Source of the DNA: Bacteroidales bacterium
Lineage (GTDB): Bacteria; Bacteroidota; Bacteroidia; Bacteroidales; UBA932
NCBI GenBank assembly: GCA_017519185.1
Contig: JAFWSX010000006.1
Coordinates: 96,084-160,083 of the forward strand
Reading direction: 5' to 3'
DNA length: 64,000 bases
The notes beneath the pieces were generated by a model. It did not search any database and was not told the DNA's origin. It worked only from the letters and a program-made list of their open reading frames with translations. The position numbers and the translations under genes were made by a program. This document shows positions 38,275 to 43,418 of this stretch, in pieces (the first letter of the stretch is position 1; each line of letters starts with the position of its first letter).

Positions 38275-38307
38275 CTGCGGACCGCAATCAGCGGCCCGCA
38301 GTTTTTT
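38275..38307 (+). terminator. Intrinsic terminator after the GPH symporter gene
   Basis: Stem CTGCGGACCGC / GCGGCCCGCAG (one mismatch) with a 5-nt loop, followed by T6. Confidence 0.8.
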
Positions 38308-38314
38308 ATGCACG

Positions 38315-38373
38315 CTCTGCACGTTTTGAAAGTCCTCTGCGAGTTTTGAAAGCGCCGGTTTCCCCGTTTTGAG
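38315..38373 (+). promoter_or_regulatory. Tandem direct repeats (candidate activator/operator site)
   Basis: CTCTGCACGTTTTGAAAG lies at 38315-38332 and CTCTGCGAGTTTTGAAAG at 38335-38352, 16/18 identical with an exact 20-bp period. A third half-copy, CGTTTTGAG, at 38365-38373 overlaps the -33 TTTG. Confidence 0.55.
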
Positions 38374-38396: not shown

Positions 38397-38404
38397 TATC
38401 TTTG
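38397..38404 (+). promoter_or_regulatory. -7 box TATCTTTG for the small ORF / lipoprotein unit
   Basis: Matches TAnnTTTG, with TTTG at 38368-38371 in a -33-like position. It is 82 nt upstream of ATG 38487. Confidence 0.5.
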
Positions 38405-38486: not shown

Positions 38487-38630
38487 ATGGAAAAACGTTA
38501 CAAGGAACTCTATGAAGCGCCGTTGACAGAAGTCGTGGAGCTGAATACGAATGCAGGAATTCTCTCTGCCACAACAGAAGATTACACAATGTCAGGCAAC
38601 AGCTATGACGATTCTGATTTTCACGAGTAG
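38487..38630 (+). CDS. Unannotated 47-aa acidic small protein (hypothetical)
   Basis: Hand translation gives MEKRYKELYEAPLTEVVELNTNAGILSATTEDYTMSGNSYDDSDFHE*. It has no signal peptide and no Cys. It ends 12 nt before the lipoprotein ATG on the same strand, and is below the 60-aa cutoff of the ORF track. Confidence 0.4.
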   Translation: MEKRYKELYEAPLTEVVELNTNAGILSATTEDYTMSGNSYDDSDFHE

Positions 38631-38642
38631 GAGGGCAGCAGT

Positions 38643-41600
38643 ATGAAACAAAGAATTACCATTATTATTGCAGCGTTTGCTTTCTTAGCCCTTGTATCCT
38701 GCACAGATGGGATAGTTTCCAATGTCGATCCTGTGCAATCGGCCAATCCCGAAGGTGGCGTAGTGTTCACAGCCACTACGGAAGGCCCAGCCACGAAAAC
38801 AACTTTATCAGGTGATGATGAGAACGGCTACCAGGTCAACTGGCAGAGCGGAGACATGATTGCCGTAAGAAACTATGTATTCGGAACACCACCTGTAGTA
38901 TTCTACACTACCACCAGCAATACCACCTACGGTGAGTTTACCTACGACAGTGGTGCTGAAGAATTGACAAACCCGCCTTACTATGCCTTTTATCCTGCAG
39001 AATACTGGAGTGAACAAAATGCAGCATATCCTGTAGTCCAGAAACACGTCCCTGGAGCGGTAAAGGCTCCGATGTTTGCCTATAGCGAAACCAATCATCT
39101 CCAGTTCAAGAATATCGGCGGTCTTGTCAGGATTAACCTCAAAACTCCTTTGACAGGAAAAAAGATCAAGAAAATCTATCTCTATTCCACCTCCCAGAGC
39201 TTGAGCGGCACCATTACAAACATAACCTCACTTAACAGCAATCCTACCGCAACTGTTGACAAAAACAGTCCGGCCCAGCATCCTGTGGTATTGGAATGCT
39301 GCAATGAAGGCGTGGAGATAGGTTCCTCTCCTACGCCATTCTACATCGCAGTTCCGGCAAACACCTATACCGAACTCACGATAGGTGTAATCACCGTAGA
39401 CGGCATAAAGCAGACTTACACCCTGAATTCAGACAAGAGCATAGTTGTAGAGAGAAGTGCCATTACCGACATAAACCTTACTTTCAACAAGGATCCTGAA
39501 ATCATCGACCTCAGCGAAAACGGTACGGCCAACACCTATATAGTAAATACTGTGGGCTACTATAAGTTCAAGGCTACCGTAAAGGGTAACGGCGGGCTCG
39601 ACCCTGTCACCGGAACAACGGCCACGGAGATAAACAAGAACGACATCAGCGGAGTAACGGTACTATGGGACCTCAAGCAGAGAGGCAATGTCGTATACCA
39701 CGACGGAAAAATGCAGTCCCATCATATTGTTTACCACGACGGCTACATATATTTCTACAAAAACTATAACCTTGAAGGAAACTCTTATGTGGCCATTTTC
39801 AAGGACAAGGAAGGCGGAACCGACGGAGTCTATGACAAGGGAATAGATGAGATCCTCTGGAGCTGGCTCATCTGGGCGACACAAAATCCTTCCAGCGTGG
39901 TTTACAACGGCAACGAGTTCATGGACCGCAACATCGGCTCTGTTACTACCGGAACTTTCGACGACGGAAAATACACCGCAGGTTTCAGCTATCAGTGGGG
40001 AAGACCTGCCCCGTTCGCGTCTTCATTAGGGCAGGCATATACTCCTTTCAATTACGTCCCTCCAAGAACCTCTGTCTTCTCATTTGAAAACATAGGAAAC
40101 GGAACTACCGTAGACCACGCCACTTCACATCCAGTCACATTCTTCTACCATGGCAGCAGAAGCAACTGGATGCCGGATAATGCAACTTGCATGACCCTTT
40201 GGTCAGATGACGTCAAAACCATTTATGACCCGTCACCAATAGGCTGGAAAGTTCCTTCAAAGGCCCAACTGACCGGAATAACATCTGCAGTGTCCTTCTA
40301 TGGATCCGGTTTTATCGGCCCTGGCAGCAGTTCAGATTTCGGATATGGAAATCCTGGCTCCGTTTTGCTGTGGAGCAGTACCTGTGACGACAGTGACGGT
40401 TTCATTGGAGCCTGGGCTAACGCGTATGGCTCAATGTATAAAAAATATGGAAGTTGGCCTGACGTATATATGATGGCCGGTATGCCTGTCCGTCCTGTAA
40501 GAGACGAGTCAACTATGACCTGGGTCGACCTCAGTGCTTCCGGTACAGCCAACAGCTACATAGTTCCCGGATCCGGCAACTACAAGTTCAAGGCAACTGT
40601 AAGGGGCAACGGCGCTGCAGACCTTGCCGGAGTAAGCAAGAACATCAGCGCATCCGAAATTGCCTCCGCATCTCTGGTTTGGGCTAGCTACGGCACAACA
40701 ACAGCTCCGGGAGAAGCTGAGATGTTGTTCAACGTTCATTATCAGGATGGCTATGTCTATTTCCGTGTTCCCGACACTTTCAGGGCAGGCAATGCTGTGG
40801 TTGCAGTAATGAATGCTTCCAACCAGTATCTGTGGAGCTGGCATCTCTGGTTCACCGATGCAGACATTGAAGGCAAAGCCCAGACATATCCAAGCGGAGC
40901 CCAGATGATGGACCGCAACCTGGGGGCCCTGAGCGCCACCTACAATTCATCCAACACGGCAGACTGGGGGCTTATGTACCAGTGGGGAAGGAAGGAACCG
41001 TTCCTGAACTCCTGGAGCAATCAGTATAGCTCCGGCTATATTTCATCATCCAATGCAGGAACTGTGTACAGGCCGGCCGTTTGGGGAACCAATGAAAGCA
41101 TTGTAACTGCATATCAGGCCAATTCTACCGTTGCTGCGGTAAACAGACTGTCACCTACATATCTTTACAGCAGCTGGTACATAAGCAGTTCTCAGTCTGG
41201 TCAGTTGGAATGGGCTTCTGACATGACGGACAATCTCTGGGCAGAAGACAAGACCATCTTTGACCCTTGCCCTGCCGGGTGGAAGGTTCCGGACAAAGCT
41301 GTCTGGGAAGGTTCCTTCATGACCAGCCTTGCCAATGCAACATTCTCCAACAATGGATTCACCGTTTCCGGCATCAGATACCCCAGCACCGCTGTCAGAC
41401 TGCCTCAATCCATTTACATAAACGGCACCAAATACAACAACGGCGGTCTAATACTTGAGAACCAGTCTGATTACCATGTCTTTCTCTGGGCTTTCAACGG
41501 ACAGTTGCACAAGGAGAAATTCAATTATGAAAACGAAGGGCAATATTCACAGGCTCTCCCTGTAGCACCCGGGGTTTATTCAAATCCTCCGATAAGAAGC

Positions 41601-41729
41601 TCTTTCGTCCAAGAGTATGACTTTTCTATAGCATATACTGCGTGGCGACAGGATGCAGGAATGCCAAGTCACTCTACATCTTATTTCTATAGGACCAGAG
41701 CCGGCGCCGTACGCTGCGTTCGGGAATAA
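38643..41729 (+). CDS. Large surface lipoprotein: fimbrillin(Mfa)-like N-terminal region plus two tandem ~340-aa modules, each ending in a FISUMP-like (Fibrobacter succinogenes major paralogous, lectin-like) domain
   Basis: Lipobox AFLALVSC. The N-terminal VVFTATTEG..TKTTL...VNWQSGDMIAV pattern matches Bacteroidales fimbrillin-like proteins. The repeated motif sets are GTAN(T/S)YIV...YKFKATV(K/R)GNG, LWSW(L/H)(I/L)W, MDRN(I/L)G, YQWGR, DP(S/C)P(I/A)GWKVP and VR(P/C)VR(D)E. Confidence 0.85.
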   Translation: MKQRITIIIAAFAFLALVSCTDGIVSNVDPVQSANPEGGVVFTATTEGPATKTTLSGDDENGYQVNWQSGDMIAVRNYVFGTPPVVFYTTTSNTTYGEFTYDSGAEELTNPPYYAFYPAEYWSEQNAAYPVVQKHVPGAVKAPMFAYSETNHLQFKNIGGLVRINLKTPLTGKKIKKIYLYSTSQSLSGTITNITSLNSNPTATVDKNSPAQHPVVLECCNEGVEIGSSPTPFYIAVPANTYTELTIGVITVDGIKQTYTLNSDKSIVVERSAITDINLTFNKDPEIIDLSENGTANTYIVNTVGYYKFKATVKGNGGLDPVTGTTATEINKNDISGVTVLWDLKQRGNVVYHDGKMQSHHIVYHDGYIYFYKNYNLEGNSYVAIFKDKEGGTDGVYDKGIDEILWSWLIWATQNPSSVVYNGNEFMDRNIGSVTTGTFDDGKYTAGFSYQWGRPAPFASSLGQAYTPFNYVPPRTSVFSFENIGNGTTVDHATSHPVTFFYHGSRSNWMPDNATCMTLWSDDVKTIYDPSPIGWKVPSKAQLTGITSAVSFYGSGFIGPGSSSDFGYGNPGSVLLWSSTCDDSDGFIGAWANAYGSMYKKYGSWPDVYMMAGMPVRPVRDESTMTWVDLSASGTANSYIVPGSGNYKFKATVRGNGAADLAGVSKNISASEIASASLVWASYGTTTAPGEAEMLFNVHYQDGYVYFRVPDTFRAGNAVVAVMNASNQYLWSWHLWFTDADIEGKAQTYPSGAQMMDRNLGALSATYNSSNTADWGLMYQWGRKEPFLNSWSNQYSSGYISSSNAGTVYRPAVWGTNESIVTAYQANSTVAAVNRLSPTYLYSSWYISSSQSGQLEWASDMTDNLWAEDKTIFDPCPAGWKVPDKAVWEGSFMTSLANATFSNNGFTVSGIRYPSTAVRLPQSIYINGTKYNNGGLILENQSDYHVFLWAFNGQLHKEKFNYENEGQYSQALPVAPGVYSNPPIRSSFVQEYDFSIAYTAWRQDAGMPSHSTSYFYRTRAGAVRCVRE
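39501..41726 (+). repeat. Internal tandem duplication inside the lipoprotein gene (module 1 39501-40520, module 2 40521-41726)
   Basis: GACCTCAGCGAAAACGGTACGGCCAACACCTATATAGT at ~39507 matches GACCTCAGTGCTTCCGGTACAGCCAACAGCTACATAGT at ~40527. The offset is exactly 1020 bp (340 codons), and the protein motifs repeat in the same order. Confidence 0.8.
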
Positions 41730-41743
41730 AAAGAGAAAAAGGA

Positions 41744-41751
41744 TATCTTTG
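41744..41751 (+). promoter_or_regulatory. -7 box TATCTTTG immediately before the TM-AraC gene
   Basis: Matches TAnnTTTG, 5 nt upstream of ATG 41757. Confidence 0.35.
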
Positions 41752-41756
41752 CAGGT

Positions 41757-43418
41757 ATGAAGCGTTCCGTCCTCATACTTCTTGCTATCCTCGCCGCGGC
41801 GTGCCAAAGTCCAGGTGTTGTGGACCCGTCCAGTCACGACGGTTATGAGTTCCACAAGATGTACGTCGAGCTGCTGCCGGACCTAAACGTACCGCGCAGC
41901 GGGCATAAGCTGGCTTATGTCGGCGGAGAACTGACGGTGATAGGGGGGCACACGACTGGTTTCATTCCCACGTCCACGGCCGAGTACTACAGCGATGGAG
42001 AGTGGCATCTTGTGAACACTCTGTACCCGCACGATTGCGGCTTCTGCGTCGTCCTTCCGTCTGAGGAAATCATAGTCGGCGGCGGCTGCGCCGAACCCTT
42101 CGGTATCGGGCAGACATGGGCTGTGGAGAAGTATGACCCCATATCACACAGTTTCTCCCCGCTTCCGATCCTTGACAGCAAACGTGGAGCCAACGTAATG
42201 GCGGCCCGATTTTCCGACGGCCGCATAATAGTGGCAGGCAACTGGTATGCAGAAGATGTGATATCAACCTACTCGCCCGAATCCGGAGGAACGATCCTTC
42301 GGATTCCGACAATAGGGCGTGCCCATCCGCTTATATTGCAGACCTCGCCTGACAATGCTGTTGTCTTGGGTTCTGTAGGCGAGCGGAATGACATCCTGCC
42401 TCCTGTGGCGGACCGTTTGAGTGGAGATTCTTTCGAAGTGCCGCTGTTGCAGGAGTGGGAGGATTGGTTAATCCCGGGGGGGCAGCAGATGAGTCACTTG
42501 TTCATTGGTGACGAGACAGTGGGTGGTTATGCCTGGCTCTTTCCTGCCGCACGCAAGTCAGATGGTCAGCTGGCTCTGATCAAAGTGGTGGGAGAGACAT
42601 TCTCCGTGCTGGAAACCGAGAAACCACTGCTGATGGATAGTCCTTATAGGGAGCCTCTTTCGCTTTATCCCATGCTGCTTGCCGACAGAGATCGGGAATG
42701 CGCCTGGATAATCCGCACTGTCATTGGAACGAGTGATATCTCTGTGACCAAAGTAGATTATGGCGAAGCTCTTCGTGGCGGCAAGGCTCCGGTAAGCGAC
42801 TATCGTGCTGAACTGCCGGACGGCCTGCTTGCTCCGTGTGAGATTTGGGCGACACTCCTGCCCGGAGGCCGCATCGCCGTTGTCGGGGGCCTTACTTCTC
42901 CGGACAACTATAACCCCAGTGCCGCCGCATTCATCCTGCATACGGAGCCGGAACAGCCAAGTGTAATCCAATGGTGGATGATTGTTTGTGCTTTAGTGCT
43001 GCTTGGCGCTGCCGGAGTTTTTCTGGCCTTTCGTTCCGGAAAAGGCAGGAATGGGCGCGAACAGGTGCCGGAGGGCCCGATGGATGAACTTATGAAGCGT
43101 ATTGCGGTTCAGATGGAGGAAAACCATCTGTTCCTGAGGCCGGGTCTGACAAAAGAAGAAGTTGCACTGGCCGTCGGCTCCAATTCCCGCTATGTGTCCG
43201 ACTGCATCAATCTTAAAGCCGGCTGCTCATTCATCGATTTTGTAAACGATTACCGCATCCGGTATGCACAGCGGCTTTTGTATGAGAATCCTGATATGCG
43301 TGTCGGCGAAATCAGCGAAGAATCCGGCTTCTCCAGCGAAGTCACATTCTACCGCAATTTCAAGGCACGCACCGGCCAGACTCCTACAGAGTGGCTGGCT
43401 TCACAAAGCCGTATGTAA
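41757..43418 (+). CDS. Membrane-spanning one-component regulator: lipoprotein-type signal, periplasmic Kelch/beta-propeller-like domain, one TM helix, cytoplasmic AraC-type HTH
   Basis: MKRSVLILLAILAAAC signal with lipobox. Kelch-like repeats include PRSGHKLAYVGGELTVIGGH, IIVGGG and RIIVAGNWY. The TM helix WWMIVCALVLLGAAGVFLAF is at ~42972-43034. The C-terminal AraC signature is YVSDCINLKAGCSFIDFVNDYRIRYAQRLL...ISEESGFSSEVTFYRNFKARTGQTPTEW. Confidence 0.85.
   Translation: MKRSVLILLAILAAACQSPGVVDPSSHDGYEFHKMYVELLPDLNVPRSGHKLAYVGGELTVIGGHTTGFIPTSTAEYYSDGEWHLVNTLYPHDCGFCVVLPSEEIIVGGGCAEPFGIGQTWAVEKYDPISHSFSPLPILDSKRGANVMAARFSDGRIIVAGNWYAEDVISTYSPESGGTILRIPTIGRAHPLILQTSPDNAVVLGSVGERNDILPPVADRLSGDSFEVPLLQEWEDWLIPGGQQMSHLFIGDETVGGYAWLFPAARKSDGQLALIKVVGETFSVLETEKPLLMDSPYREPLSLYPMLLADRDRECAWIIRTVIGTSDISVTKVDYGEALRGGKAPVSDYRAELPDGLLAPCEIWATLLPGGRIAVVGGLTSPDNYNPSAAAFILHTEPEQPSVIQWWMIVCALVLLGAAGVFLAFRSGKGRNGREQVPEGPMDELMKRIAVQMEENHLFLRPGLTKEEVALAVGSNSRYVSDCINLKAGCSFIDFVNDYRIRYAQRLLYENPDMRVGEISEESGFSSEVTFYRNFKARTGQTPTEWLASQSRM

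What the first reader, a model, noticed from the sequence alone, without database searches (positions are those of the whole stretch)
41757..43418. Phosphorelay-free transmembrane AraC regulator with a periplasmic Kelch-like propeller
Reading N to C, the protein has:
- a lipoprotein-type signal (AAAC)
- ~380 aa with Kelch-like repeat signatures
- one TM helix (~42972-43034)
- a short linker
- a complete AraC/XylS HTH pair

Bacteroides hybrid two-component systems couple a periplasmic beta-propeller sensor to an AraC output through kinase and receiver domains. This protein looks like the same input and output with the whole phosphorelay removed. It would be a ToxR-like design in which a membrane-bound protein must reach its promoter directly. 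It sits directly behind the lipoprotein gene, has its own -7 box, and the cassette promoter carries AraC-style direct repeats.
Basis: partly seen in the sequence, partly recalled or inferred. Interest (0 to 1): 0.6.

Follow-up and report, generated by a model that had tools for sequence, protein, structure and literature searches.

The report
Membrane-bound Kelch-sensor AraC regulator
This gene encodes a one-piece membrane sensor and gene switch (propeller outside the membrane, AraC DNA-binding domain inside) from a large, unstudied family of rumen Bacteroidales that most likely turns on its own small operon for a swappable surface adhesin; the general design is already known, but this sensor type and its wiring are not described.

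Summary
ORF 41757-43418 (+, 553 aa) has, in order:
- a signal peptide with a lipobox
- a seven-bladed Kelch-type propeller
- one TM helix with positive charges after it
- a 13-residue linker
- a complete AraC/XylS DNA-binding domain

No kinase or receiver domain is present.

The family is large: at least 226 clusters at 50% identity, nearly all with this architecture. It is confined to ruminant-gut Bacteroidales MAGs and annotated only as "AraC family regulator".

Comparative evidence supports a local, self-contained circuit:
- **Operator.** Three phased direct repeats (GTTTTGAnAG, 20 and 23 bp apart) lie 25 nt before the cassette promoter. They are conserved in eight loci, are unique in the 2.2-Mb genome, and co-vary with the recognition helices.
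- **Internal promoter.** A conserved -7 box ends 5 nt before the regulator's ATG, which suggests a leaderless mRNA.
- **Variable partner.** The upstream lipoprotein, a pilin-fold adhesin here, is exchanged between otherwise conserved cassettes.

The design is not new. V. cholerae TfoS, Bacteroides SusR and a census of transmembrane regulators are precedents. The propeller is unrelated to HTCS sensors, and the lipobox is not conserved. The ligand is unknown.

The scan met this family before on other DNA (e1-4224044, e1-4059863).

The parts
38275..38307 (+). Hairpin plus T-run after the upstream MFS transporter gene. It is a likely terminator that insulates the cassette.
   Evidence: Read directly from the sequence: CTGCGGaCCGC-aatca-GCGGcCCGCAG followed by TTTTTT. 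The pattern scan did not list it because of the mismatch in the stem.
38322..38372 (+). Candidate operator. Three direct repeats have GTTTTGA cores at 38323, 38343 and 38366, giving periods of 20 and 23 bp. The first two are CGTTTTGAAAGTC and GTTTTGAAAG.
   Evidence: Invariant in 8 loci with regulators at least 63% identical (alignment A2). It is the only such site in the 2.2-Mb genome. It occurs exactly twice in G249, at that genome's two class-A cassettes, and the reversed control pattern gives 0. It co-varies with the HTH recognition helices.
38397..38404 (+). P1, the cassette promoter -7 box TATCTTTG (Bacteroidetes sigma-ABfr consensus TAnnTTTG).
   Evidence: The box is conserved in the aligned loci and lies 25 nt after the third repeat. 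The consensus is as quoted in PMC7366714.
38487..38630 (+). Conserved 47-codon small ORF, the first cistron, ending 12 nt before the lipoprotein ATG. It has no signal peptide and an acidic C-terminus.
   Evidence: Homologous small ORFs sit at the same position in many cassettes (alignment A3). Y9 and P12 are invariant, with the motif YEAP...V.E....G. A profile search finds 54 clusters, all unnamed or hypothetical. The small ORF also occurs with a GerE regulator instead of the Kelch-AraC protein.
38643..41729 (+). 1028-aa lipoprotein and likely target gene. It has a type V pilin-fold N-terminal domain plus two duplicated C-terminal modules.
   Evidence: Lipobox LVSC. The N-terminal 296 aa were modelled at pLDDT 72. 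Foldseek hits Bacteroides fimbrial and 'cell adhesion' proteins 3t2l, 3ufi, 3sy6 and Mfa4 at E 1e-6 to 1e-3. No Pfam or NCBIfam hit at E<=1.
41744..41751 (+). P2, an internal -7 box TATCTTTG ending 5 nt before the regulator's ATG. It predicts a leaderless or nearly leaderless regulator mRNA.
   Evidence: Conserved at 4-6 nt from the start codon in nearly all close homologues. Present in 47 of 78 family loci against 6.9% of control open frames in the own genome.
41757..43418 (+). The regulator gene, 553 aa.
41757..41804 (+). Signal peptide with lipobox (residues 1-16, LAAAC).
   Evidence: A signal-peptide-like core occurs in 235 of 252 homologues, but a lipobox in only 69-120 of 252.
41850..42941 (+). 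Periplasmic seven-bladed Kelch-type beta-propeller (residues 32-395). This is the presumed sensor.
   Evidence: The invariant residues lie mostly just after the GG doublets and just before the first strands of blades 1-3 (H50, H65, T67, G68, F69, H92, D93, C111, N162, W163, D167).
42969..43037 (+). Single transmembrane helix (residues 405-427).
   Evidence: The helix is present in 243 of 252 homologues. Net charge is higher after the helix than before it in 199 of 243.
43077..43409 (+). Cytoplasmic AraC/XylS DNA-binding domain (residues 441-551, seven helices, two HTH motifs), joined to the TM helix by a linker of about 13 residues.
   Evidence: HTH_18 E 2.7e-16 and HTH_AraC E 1.8e-7. PDB sequence hits to Lin2118, the AraC DBD 2k9s and AdpA. 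Helix pattern in the model.

Best explanation
The protein is a membrane-integrated one-component transcription activator.

**Topology (shown by sequence and model).** The Sec/lipoprotein signal exports the N-terminal seven-bladed Kelch propeller to the periplasm. One TM helix anchors the protein in the inner membrane. A linker of about 13 residues holds a complete AraC/XylS DNA-binding domain against the cytoplasmic face.

**Mechanism (inferred).**
1. A low constitutive amount of regulator is made from the internal promoter P2, probably as a leaderless mRNA.
2. A periplasmic ligand binds the conserved top face of the propeller. Because the propeller is highly conserved while the partner lipoproteins are not, the ligand should be common to the whole family.
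3. Binding changes the oligomeric state or conformation, as proposed for TfoS.
4. The AraC domains then occupy the three 20/23-bp-phased GTTTTGAnAG repeats, whose last core ends 25 nt before the -7 box of P1.
5. P1 is activated and transcribes the small ORF, the pilin-fold adhesin lipoprotein and, by read-through, the regulator itself. This gives positive feedback.

**Why target and regulator are adjacent (inferred).** The regulator acts only in cis-proximity on its own cassette. Encoding it in the same transcription unit as its target keeps the operator close to the membrane site where the regulator is inserted.
For: **Domain order and topology.**

**Dedicated architecture.** The propeller alone finds 226 clusters at 50% identity with E<=1e-30, nearly all 520-600 aa long with the propeller at the N-terminus.

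**Operator.**
- Invariant across 8 loci even though the genes between it and the regulator differ.
- One copy in G000.
- Two copies in G249, exactly at its two class-A cassettes.
- A second regulator subfamily (51-55% identity) carries a different conserved element of about 75 bp with 21-bp-phased ATGAGA repeats at the same place.
- Both HTH recognition helices differ consistently between the two operator classes.

**Operator geometry.** The repeats lie upstream of the promoter, and a spacing of about two helical turns matches the motifs predicted for AraC-type HTCS domains in Bacteroides (mean 21 bp, PMC3878776).

**Internal promoter.** The -7 box next to the start codon is conserved: 47 of 78 loci against 6.9% in controls.

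**Read-through.** No terminator-like site lies in the 27 nt between the lipoprotein stop codon and the regulator's ATG.

**Functional precedent.** TfoS has the same layout, is activated by chitin oligosaccharides and works in E. coli (PMC3903286).
Against: - Nothing here is experimental. Binding of this protein to the repeats, the sign of regulation and the transcription start sites are all inferred.
- Operator and regulator are physically linked. Their co-occurrence and co-variation are therefore partly explained by common descent.
- The distance from the third repeat's TTTG to the -7 box is 25 nt.
- No ligand can be named.
- In distant subfamilies (34-42% identity) the regulator is wired differently, lying divergent from or upstream of the exported-protein gene. 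The downstream-in-operon arrangement is therefore a subfamily trait.
Confidence: 0.68

Rival explanations
1. Self-monitoring circuit. The propeller does not sense an outside cue. It senses a product of its own cassette in the envelope, either the conserved pilin-fold domain or its export or assembly intermediates, or the small acidic peptide. This would give feedback on adhesin export.
For: - The regulator is strictly adjacent to an exported protein gene across the whole family, in three different gene orders.
- The best Foldseek hit is a Kelch protein that binds a peptide C-terminus (KLHDC10).
- The small ORF products end in acidic-aromatic tails.
Against: - The partner lipoproteins are often unrelated while the propellers stay 60-90% identical. 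Of 31 locus pairs with regulators at least 80% identical, 21 have non-homologous lipoproteins.
- Many partners lack the pilin-fold N-terminus and are BACON, beta-helix or DUF1566-like proteins instead.
- The small protein has no signal peptide.
- The small protein also occurs in cassettes without any Kelch-AraC regulator.
Confidence: 0.12
2. Proteolytic release. The membrane form is inactive, and signal-dependent cleavage within or near the TM helix frees a soluble AraC domain that then acts on DNA.
For: - The linker of about 13 residues leaves little reach for a tethered domain.
- Regulated proteolysis is known to control other membrane-bound regulators such as TcpP and CadC (titles and abstracts).
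Against: - No protease gene is conserved in the cassettes.
- In the studied cases, TcpP proteolysis inactivates the regulator.
- TfoS works as a membrane protein (PMC3903286).
- Linker length varies from about 13 to 60 residues across homologues without a conserved cleavage motif.
Confidence: 0.08
3. The protein is a repressor, or it regulates distant genes. The conserved repeats would then be bound by another factor.
For: - Binding has not been demonstrated.
- The own genome has at least three other AraC-type reading frames.
Against: - The repeats lie upstream of the promoter rather than over it.
- The repeat pattern occurs nowhere else in the genome.
- The number of sites equals the number of class-A regulators in G249.
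- The operator class follows the regulator's recognition helices.
Confidence: 0.08
4. The propeller is a periplasmic enzyme (for example a mutarotase-like or oxidase-like Kelch protein) fused by chance to a DNA-binding domain, and is not a sensor.
For: - Galactose oxidases are among the fold matches.
- Several His, Asp and Cys residues are invariant.
Against: - The fusion is stable across at least 226 diverged clusters.
- No free-standing version dominates the hits.
- Identity to galactose oxidase is only 12-15%. I did not check whether its copper ligands are aligned.
Confidence: 0.03

Closest known systems
TfoS of Vibrio cholerae (VC2080), a membrane-bound AraC-type activator of the sRNA gene tfoR (PMC3903286)
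   Same: - The layout is identical: signal sequence, large periplasmic domain, one TM helix, cytoplasmic AraC-like HTH.
- There is no phosphorelay.
- It activates a promoter directly in response to a periplasmic ligand.
- Ligand-induced dimerisation has been proposed for it.
   Different: - The TfoS periplasmic domain is not described as a Kelch propeller, and homology was not tested here.
- TfoS controls an sRNA gene and is not part of an adhesin operon.
- It comes from a different phylum.
- No autoregulatory operon, leaderless internal promoter or swappable partner gene is reported for it.
SusR and SusR-like regulators of Bacteroides (PMC3878776)
   Same: - They are inner-membrane proteins with a periplasmic sensor and a cytoplasmic DNA-binding domain.
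- They are kinase-free.
- They activate adjacent genes.
- Their predicted sites are direct repeats.
   Different: - The SusR DNA-binding domain is not AraC-type; the paper says it resembles no known family.
- The sensor is not a propeller.
- The targets are PULs with SusC/D, and none is present here.
- SusR site spacing is 67-77 bp, against 20-23 bp here.
Bacteroides hybrid two-component systems (HTCS, e.g. BT4663)
   Same: - They have a periplasmic beta-propeller sensor and an AraC-type output.
- Predicted operators are direct repeats about 21 bp apart (PMC3878776).
   Different: - HTCSs have HisKA, HATPase_c and Response_reg domains and a Reg_prop/Y_Y_Y double propeller. None of these is detected here.
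- The Kelch propeller is a different repeat family.
ToxR/TcpP/CadC-type transmembrane transcription regulators (census in PMC10269533)
   Same: They are single-pass membrane-bound one-component regulators that bind promoter DNA from the membrane.
   Different: - The topology is reversed, with an N-terminal cytoplasmic domain.
- The DNA-binding domain is an OmpR-type winged helix rather than a C-terminal AraC double HTH.

Membership tests
AraC/XylS family of transcription regulators | A conserved DNA-binding domain of about 100 aa with two helix-turn-helix motifs (seven helices) | tested here: met
   Pfam HTH_18 at 60.1 bits (cut-off 33.6) covers positions 2-79 of the 80-position model. HTH_AraC scores 31.6 bits (cut-off 26.6). 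The model has seven helices at 441-551. PDB sequence hits include AraC 2k9s, Lin2118 and AdpA.
Kelch-repeat beta-propellers | Kelch sequence motifs above the curated threshold | tested here: met
   Kelch_6 at 28.3 bits against 25.3, and Kelch_1 at 21.6 against 20.1, both only just above the cut-off. phmmer hits consensus-design Kelch proteins at E 3e-11.
Kelch-repeat beta-propellers | Closed propeller fold of four-stranded blades | tested here: met
   The AlphaFold2 model has pLDDT 83 with about 27 strands between 32 and 395. Foldseek hits KLHDC10, galactose oxidase, KLHL12 and KEAP1 at E 2e-10 to 1e-6. This rests on a prediction, not a solved structure.
Transmembrane transcription regulators (TTRs, as defined in PMC10269533) | A DNA-binding domain plus at least one predicted TM region in one protein | tested here: met
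   HTH_18 is the commonest DNA-binding domain in that census (16,725 of 50,302). Kelch_1 occurs in only 9 TTRs, and the one example passage shown is a GerE protein.
Hybrid two-component systems (HTCS) | HisKA and HATPase_c kinase core plus a receiver domain between sensor and AraC output | tested here: not met
   No such Pfam hit at E<=1. Only about 13 residues separate the TM helix from the AraC domain.
Hybrid two-component systems (HTCS) | Reg_prop/Y_Y_Y periplasmic sensor | tested here: not met
   No Reg_prop or Y_Y_Y hit at E<=1.
ToxR-like regulators (ToxR, TcpP, CadC) | N-terminal cytoplasmic OmpR-type winged-helix domain (Trans_reg_C) followed by a TM helix and a C-terminal periplasmic domain | tested here: not met
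   The domain order is the reverse and the DNA-binding domain is AraC-type.
TfoS-like membrane AraC regulators | Signal sequence, periplasmic domain, one TM helix and an AraC HTH | tested here: met
   The layout is as described for TfoS in PMC3903286 and was verified here.
TfoS-like membrane AraC regulators | Sequence homology of the periplasmic domain to TfoS | not tested
Bacterial lipoproteins | Signal peptide ending in a lipobox with an invariant Cys | tested here: met
   LAAAC with Cys16 follows a KR n-region and a hydrophobic core. This is a pattern match only. The Cys is absent from about half or more of homologues. Lipidation itself cannot be tested with these tools.

The most novel reading that the evidence does not exclude
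The conserved frame made of operator, P1, the small ORF and, at the far end, the Kelch-TM-AraC gene with its own leaderless promoter acts as a portable expression platform. Rumen Bacteroidales would exchange surface-adhesin genes within this frame by recombination between the conserved flanks. One family-wide periplasmic cue, working through positive feedback, would then switch on whichever adhesin occupies the slot, possibly in a bistable, phase-variation-like manner without DNA inversion.
Probability: 0.3. Interest if true: 0.65.

Novelty: new variant of a known kind. Interest (0 to 1): 0.48.

Why it matters
Transmembrane one-component regulators are abundant in gut Bacteroidota but almost none has been studied. 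A census (PMC10269533) states that few are experimentally validated.

This family offers a compact, testable example with four identifiable parts:
- a defined sensor fold
- a predicted operator that is unique in the genome
- a single target operon
- an internal promoter

If the circuit works as proposed, it explains how small-genome rumen Bacteroidales control variable surface adhesins without two-component systems. It would also give a one-protein sensor and promoter pair that could be moved into model Bacteroides as a reporter to find the ligand.

The decoupling of a conserved regulator frame from a rapidly exchanged adhesin gene is also relevant to how surface diversity is generated in the rumen.

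Tried and rejected
1. **HTCS that lost its phosphorelay: rejected as descent.** There is no Reg_prop/Y_Y_Y similarity, and the propeller is dedicated to this architecture. Whether the AraC domain is closest to HTCS outputs was not tested, because the word-indexed search is restricted by length.
2. **Sensor recognises its neighbouring lipoprotein: unlikely.** Regulators that are nearly identical sit next to unrelated lipoproteins.
3. **Small acidic peptide as periplasmic ligand: unlikely.** It has no signal peptide, and it also occurs with a GerE regulator.
4. **Third repeat as the -33 element: doubtful.** The spacing is 25 nt.
There is no Pfam or NCBIfam hit at E<=1. A 231-aa partner in another locus weakly matches Lcl_C/DUF1566.
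6. **Literature searches with "AraC" as a word start** mostly returned arachidonic-acid papers.
8. **The sigma-70-type promoter scan is uninformative** for Bacteroidetes: it found 4 sites against 4.9 expected.
9. **Mapping conservation onto the 3D model** was not possible, because model coordinates are not exposed. The statement that the conserved residues lie on the top face is inferred from general Kelch topology.
Full report

The window holds one long open frame at 41757-43418 on the plus strand, 553 aa.

- **N-terminus.** MKRSVLILLAILAAAC has a basic n-region, a hydrophobic core and an A-A-A-C lipobox.
- **Sequence matches.** Pfam finds HTH_18 (E 2.7e-16, residues 470-548, nearly the whole model) and HTH_AraC. 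It also finds Kelch_6 and Kelch_1 just above their curated cut-offs in residues 46-137. NCBIfam finds only the AraC DNA-binding part of many named regulators, all far below their cut-offs.
- **Hydropathy.** There are two hydrophobic segments, residues 3-24 and 400-429. EPEQ lies before the second and RSGKGRNGRE after it, so the C-terminal side is cytoplasmic by the positive-inside rule.
- **Structure prediction.** An AlphaFold2 model built on 28 homologues has mean pLDDT 83. It is all-beta from 32 to 395 (about 27 strands, which I read as seven four-stranded blades). It has a helix at 406-428, a low-confidence linker at 429-438, and seven helices at 441-551.
- **Fold and sequence search.** Foldseek against the PDB returns Kelch propellers and galactose oxidases at E 2e-10 to 1e-7. 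A sequence search of the PDB returns Kelch proteins for residues 30-180 and AraC-type domains for 451-549.
- **Missing domains.** No kinase, receiver, Reg_prop or Y_Y_Y domain is detected at E<=1.

**2. The family**

- A word-indexed search returned 528 relatives, essentially all 520-590 aa. The few that carry names are called "AraC family transcriptional regulator", "AraC-like DNA-binding protein" or "helix-turn-helix domain-containing protein".
- The propeller alone (residues 31-399) was scored against 1.84 billion representatives. It finds 226 clusters at 50% identity with E<=1e-30. Nearly all have the same total length with the propeller at the N-terminus. The propeller is therefore dedicated to this architecture.
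- A scan of species-representative genomes gave 142 loci. The 80 that were listed are almost all MAGs of Bacteroidales or Bacteroidia from ruminants (goat, yak, sheep, deer, buffalo; RUG and RGIG series; some labelled Prevotella or Cryptobacteroides), plus one contig binned as Oscillospiraceae.
- Distribution is patchy. Only the window's own genome, out of 201 genomes sampled evenly across the order, has a match. In the window's own family the count is 7 of 151 genomes, or 3 of 37 genera, with up to four copies per genome. The window's genome (2.2 Mb, 100% complete) has one copy.
- Of 252 full-length members, 235 have an N-terminal hydrophobic core and 243 have the TM helix. Net charge is higher after the helix in 199 of 243. 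Only 69 (strict pattern) to 120 (relaxed pattern) have a lipobox cysteine. Export of the propeller is a family trait, but lipidation is not.
- The alignment shows many invariant positions in the propeller: H50, H65, T67, G68, F69, H92, D93, C111, E124, H131, N162, W163, D167 and others. Most lie just after the GG doublets or just before the first strand of blades 1-3. In Kelch propellers these are the B-C and D-A loops that form the top-face binding site.

**3. Surroundings: a conserved cassette**

Gene order in the window:
- A hairpin with a T-run ends the upstream MFS gene (38275-38307).
- A 239-bp AT-rich gap follows.
- Next is a 47-codon ORF (38487-38630), which ends 12 nt before the lipoprotein ATG.
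- Next is the 1028-aa lipoprotein gene (38643-41729).
- After a further 27 nt comes the regulator.
- A convergent beta-lactamase-fold gene closes the unit.

Conservation of this arrangement:
- In homologous loci with regulators at least 51% identical, 17 of the 18 with enough upstream sequence have a lipobox-bearing gene ending 12-114 nt before the regulator.
- The partner lipoproteins are very diverse, from 231 to 1049 aa. Some carry BACON domains, some beta-helix repeats, one a weak Lcl_C/DUF1566 match, and many have no Pfam hit.
- Several partners share an N-terminal domain with the window's protein. I modelled that domain (pLDDT 72). It matches Bacteroides type V pilin and "cell adhesion" structures 3t2l, 3ufi and 3sy6, and more weakly Mfa4 and Mfa3.
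- The regulator is conserved while its partner is exchanged. Of 31 locus pairs whose regulators are at least 80% identical, only 10 have lipoproteins homologous over half their length.
- The window's regulator is 62-68% identical to six others, none of which has a homologous lipoprotein.
- Conversely, the window's lipoprotein is 72% identical to one in another genus whose regulator is only 41% identical.
- At one chromosomal site (after an EamA gene), different MAGs carry 231-aa, 429-aa or 530-aa lipoproteins in front of similar regulators.
- GC3 of the lipoprotein (0.53) and the regulator (0.60) is lower than that of the neighbouring genes (0.64-0.71).

The small ORF:
- It is a real conserved family with Y9 and P12 invariant, the motif YEAP...V.E....G, and an acidic-aromatic C-terminus.
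- A profile search finds 54 clusters, all unnamed or hypothetical.
- It travels with the lipoprotein. It also occurs in front of a lipoprotein behind a 72-aa GerE-type gene, with no Kelch-AraC gene in the seven genes read downstream.

In distant subfamilies (34-42% identity, including Prevotella MAGs) the regulator lies divergent from, or upstream of, an exported-protein gene.

**4. Cis-elements**

*Operator*
- Upstream of the cassette are three direct repeats with GTTTTGA cores at 38323, 38343 and 38366. They are followed 25 nt later by TATCTTTG (38397-38404), a match to the Bacteroidetes -7 consensus TAnnTTTG (consensus as cited in PMC7366714).
- An alignment of eight loci with regulators at least 63% identical shows CGTTTTGAnAGTC, GTTTTGAnAG and the third core. 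Of the third core, T..TGA is invariant, and the spacing is also invariant.
- In the window's 2.2-Mb genome, GTTTTGA-N13-GTTTTGA occurs once, here. There are 170 single cores in the genome, so a chance pair is expected about 0.01 times.
- In genome G249 the pattern occurs exactly twice, at its two class-A cassettes. The reversed control pattern occurs zero times.
- Regulators of 51-55% identity have, at the same position, a different and nearly invariant element of about 75 bp. It contains ATGAGA repeats 21 bp apart.
- Both recognition helices differ consistently between the two classes. Class A has GSNSRY(V/I)SDCIN and SGFSSEVTFYRNFKARTGQTP. Class B has GTN(V/A)xYVRGCI and AGFSSNATFYRNF(T/S)AxTGLSP.
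- Direct repeats about two helical turns apart are also what comparative genomics predicted for AraC-type HTCS outputs in Bacteroides (mean 21 bp, PMC3878776).

*Internal promoter*
- A second TATCTTTG lies at 41744-41751 and ends 5 nt before the regulator's ATG. A -7 box at 4-6 nt from the start codon is present in nearly all close homologues.
- Across the family it is present in 47 of 78 loci, against 6.9% of long open frames in the window's genome under the same test.
- Given the position of this box relative to start sites, the regulator mRNA made from it would be leaderless or nearly so. This is rare in B. thetaiotaomicron, where about 3.7% of 5' UTRs are shorter than 10 nt (PMC7366714).
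- No terminator-like site lies in the 27 nt between the lipoprotein stop codon and the regulator's ATG, so read-through from P1 is possible.

**5. Mechanism**

*Shown by sequence and model*
- An exported propeller, one TM helix and a short linker.
- A complete cytoplasmic AraC domain and no phosphorelay.

*Inferred from comparison*
- The protein binds the phased repeats of its own cassette and activates P1.
- It is kept at a basal level by P2 and is amplified by read-through from P1.

*Inferred by analogy with TfoS (PMC3903286)*
- Ligand binding in the periplasm changes the oligomeric state or conformation so that the AraC domains can occupy adjacent repeats.

The propeller is highly conserved while the partner is replaced. 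This argues for a ligand common to the family rather than recognition of the neighbouring lipoprotein.

Placing the regulator gene in the same unit as its only target would keep the operator near the membrane site where the protein is inserted. This last point is speculation.

**6. Comparison with known systems**

- The layout equals that of TfoS of V. cholerae, which has been studied experimentally.
- SusR is the Bacteroides precedent for a kinase-free membrane regulator.
- The census of Demey et al. lists 50,302 transmembrane regulators. HTH_18 is the commonest DNA-binding domain (33%). The list includes Bacteroides proteins with Reg_prop,Y_Y_Y,HTH_18 or TPR_12,HTH_18 and no kinase domains.
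- In the same census, Kelch_1 occurs in only 9 regulators, and the one example passage shown is a GerE protein.
- I found no paper describing a Kelch-TM-AraC regulator.

The finding is therefore a new variant of a known kind. It is not an HTCS derivative by any test made here, and it is ToxR-like only in principle.

**7. Relation to earlier scan notes**

The scan met the same family on other DNA:
- e1-4224044: a rumen Prevotella regulator upstream of a secreted-protein operon.
- e1-4059863 and e1-4059870: a divergent Kelch/AraC regulator.
- e1-5193573: a related cassette with a TPR-TM-AraC regulator, a pilin-fold adhesin and a micro-peptide.

I reached my conclusions on this window before reading those notes, and they agree. 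The pointer to TfoS came from e1-3160285, and I checked it in the paper.

**8. Limits**

- No binding, topology or ligand experiment exists.
- Operator and regulator are linked, so their co-variation is not independent evidence in the statistical sense.

Noticed in passing
window 38487-38630; also L004 5922-6080, L033 253-396, L110 7001-7129: This is a conserved small-protein family of 40-52 aa with the motif YEAP...V.E....G(V/I)(I/L).(A/S)S and an acidic-aromatic C-terminus. It has no signal peptide. It is always the first cistron, ending 0-12 nt before a surface lipoprotein gene. A profile search finds 54 clusters, all unnamed.
   Followed up: partly
L113 192-2117 and L114 174-2099: The same pair of small ORF and lipoprotein sits behind a 72-aa GerE/LuxR-type HTH gene instead of in front of a Kelch-AraC gene. 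The adhesin module therefore appears to be served by alternative regulators.
   Followed up: no
L004 5790-5875; L041, L042, L045, L047, L048, L049 (coordinates): Cassettes whose regulators are 51-55% identical to the window's share a nearly invariant element of about 75 bp ending in the -7 box: TTCTCA-N15-TGAGAAcAGGATTCCGGtCCATGAGAcAAAtGGTCCGGAGGGTTTTGGaTAtcTTTG. It is a second operator class.
   Followed up: partly
own genome, all contigs: About 7% of long open frames (91 of 1314) have a TAnnTTT[GA] box ending 2-9 nt before a possible in-frame start. This hints that leaderless transcripts may be more common here than the 3.7% reported for B. thetaiotaomicron. The test is permissive and was not checked further.
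   Followed up: no
window 38643-41729: The lipoprotein's first 296 aa fold like Bacteroides type V pilin and 'cell adhesion' proteins (3t2l, 3ufi, 3sy6).
   Followed up: partly
L002 6533-15461; L110 7001-12075: Cassettes cluster. Two or more regulator-lipoprotein units lie side by side, in tandem or convergent, on the same contig. In some, a BACON-domain lipoprotein precedes a lipoprotein of about 960 aa.
   Followed up: no
L106 (contig JAFPWF010000030.1): One cassette lies on a 7.9-kb contig binned into an Oscillospiraceae MAG. This is most likely a binning error, given that the genes are Bacteroidales-type.
   Followed up: no
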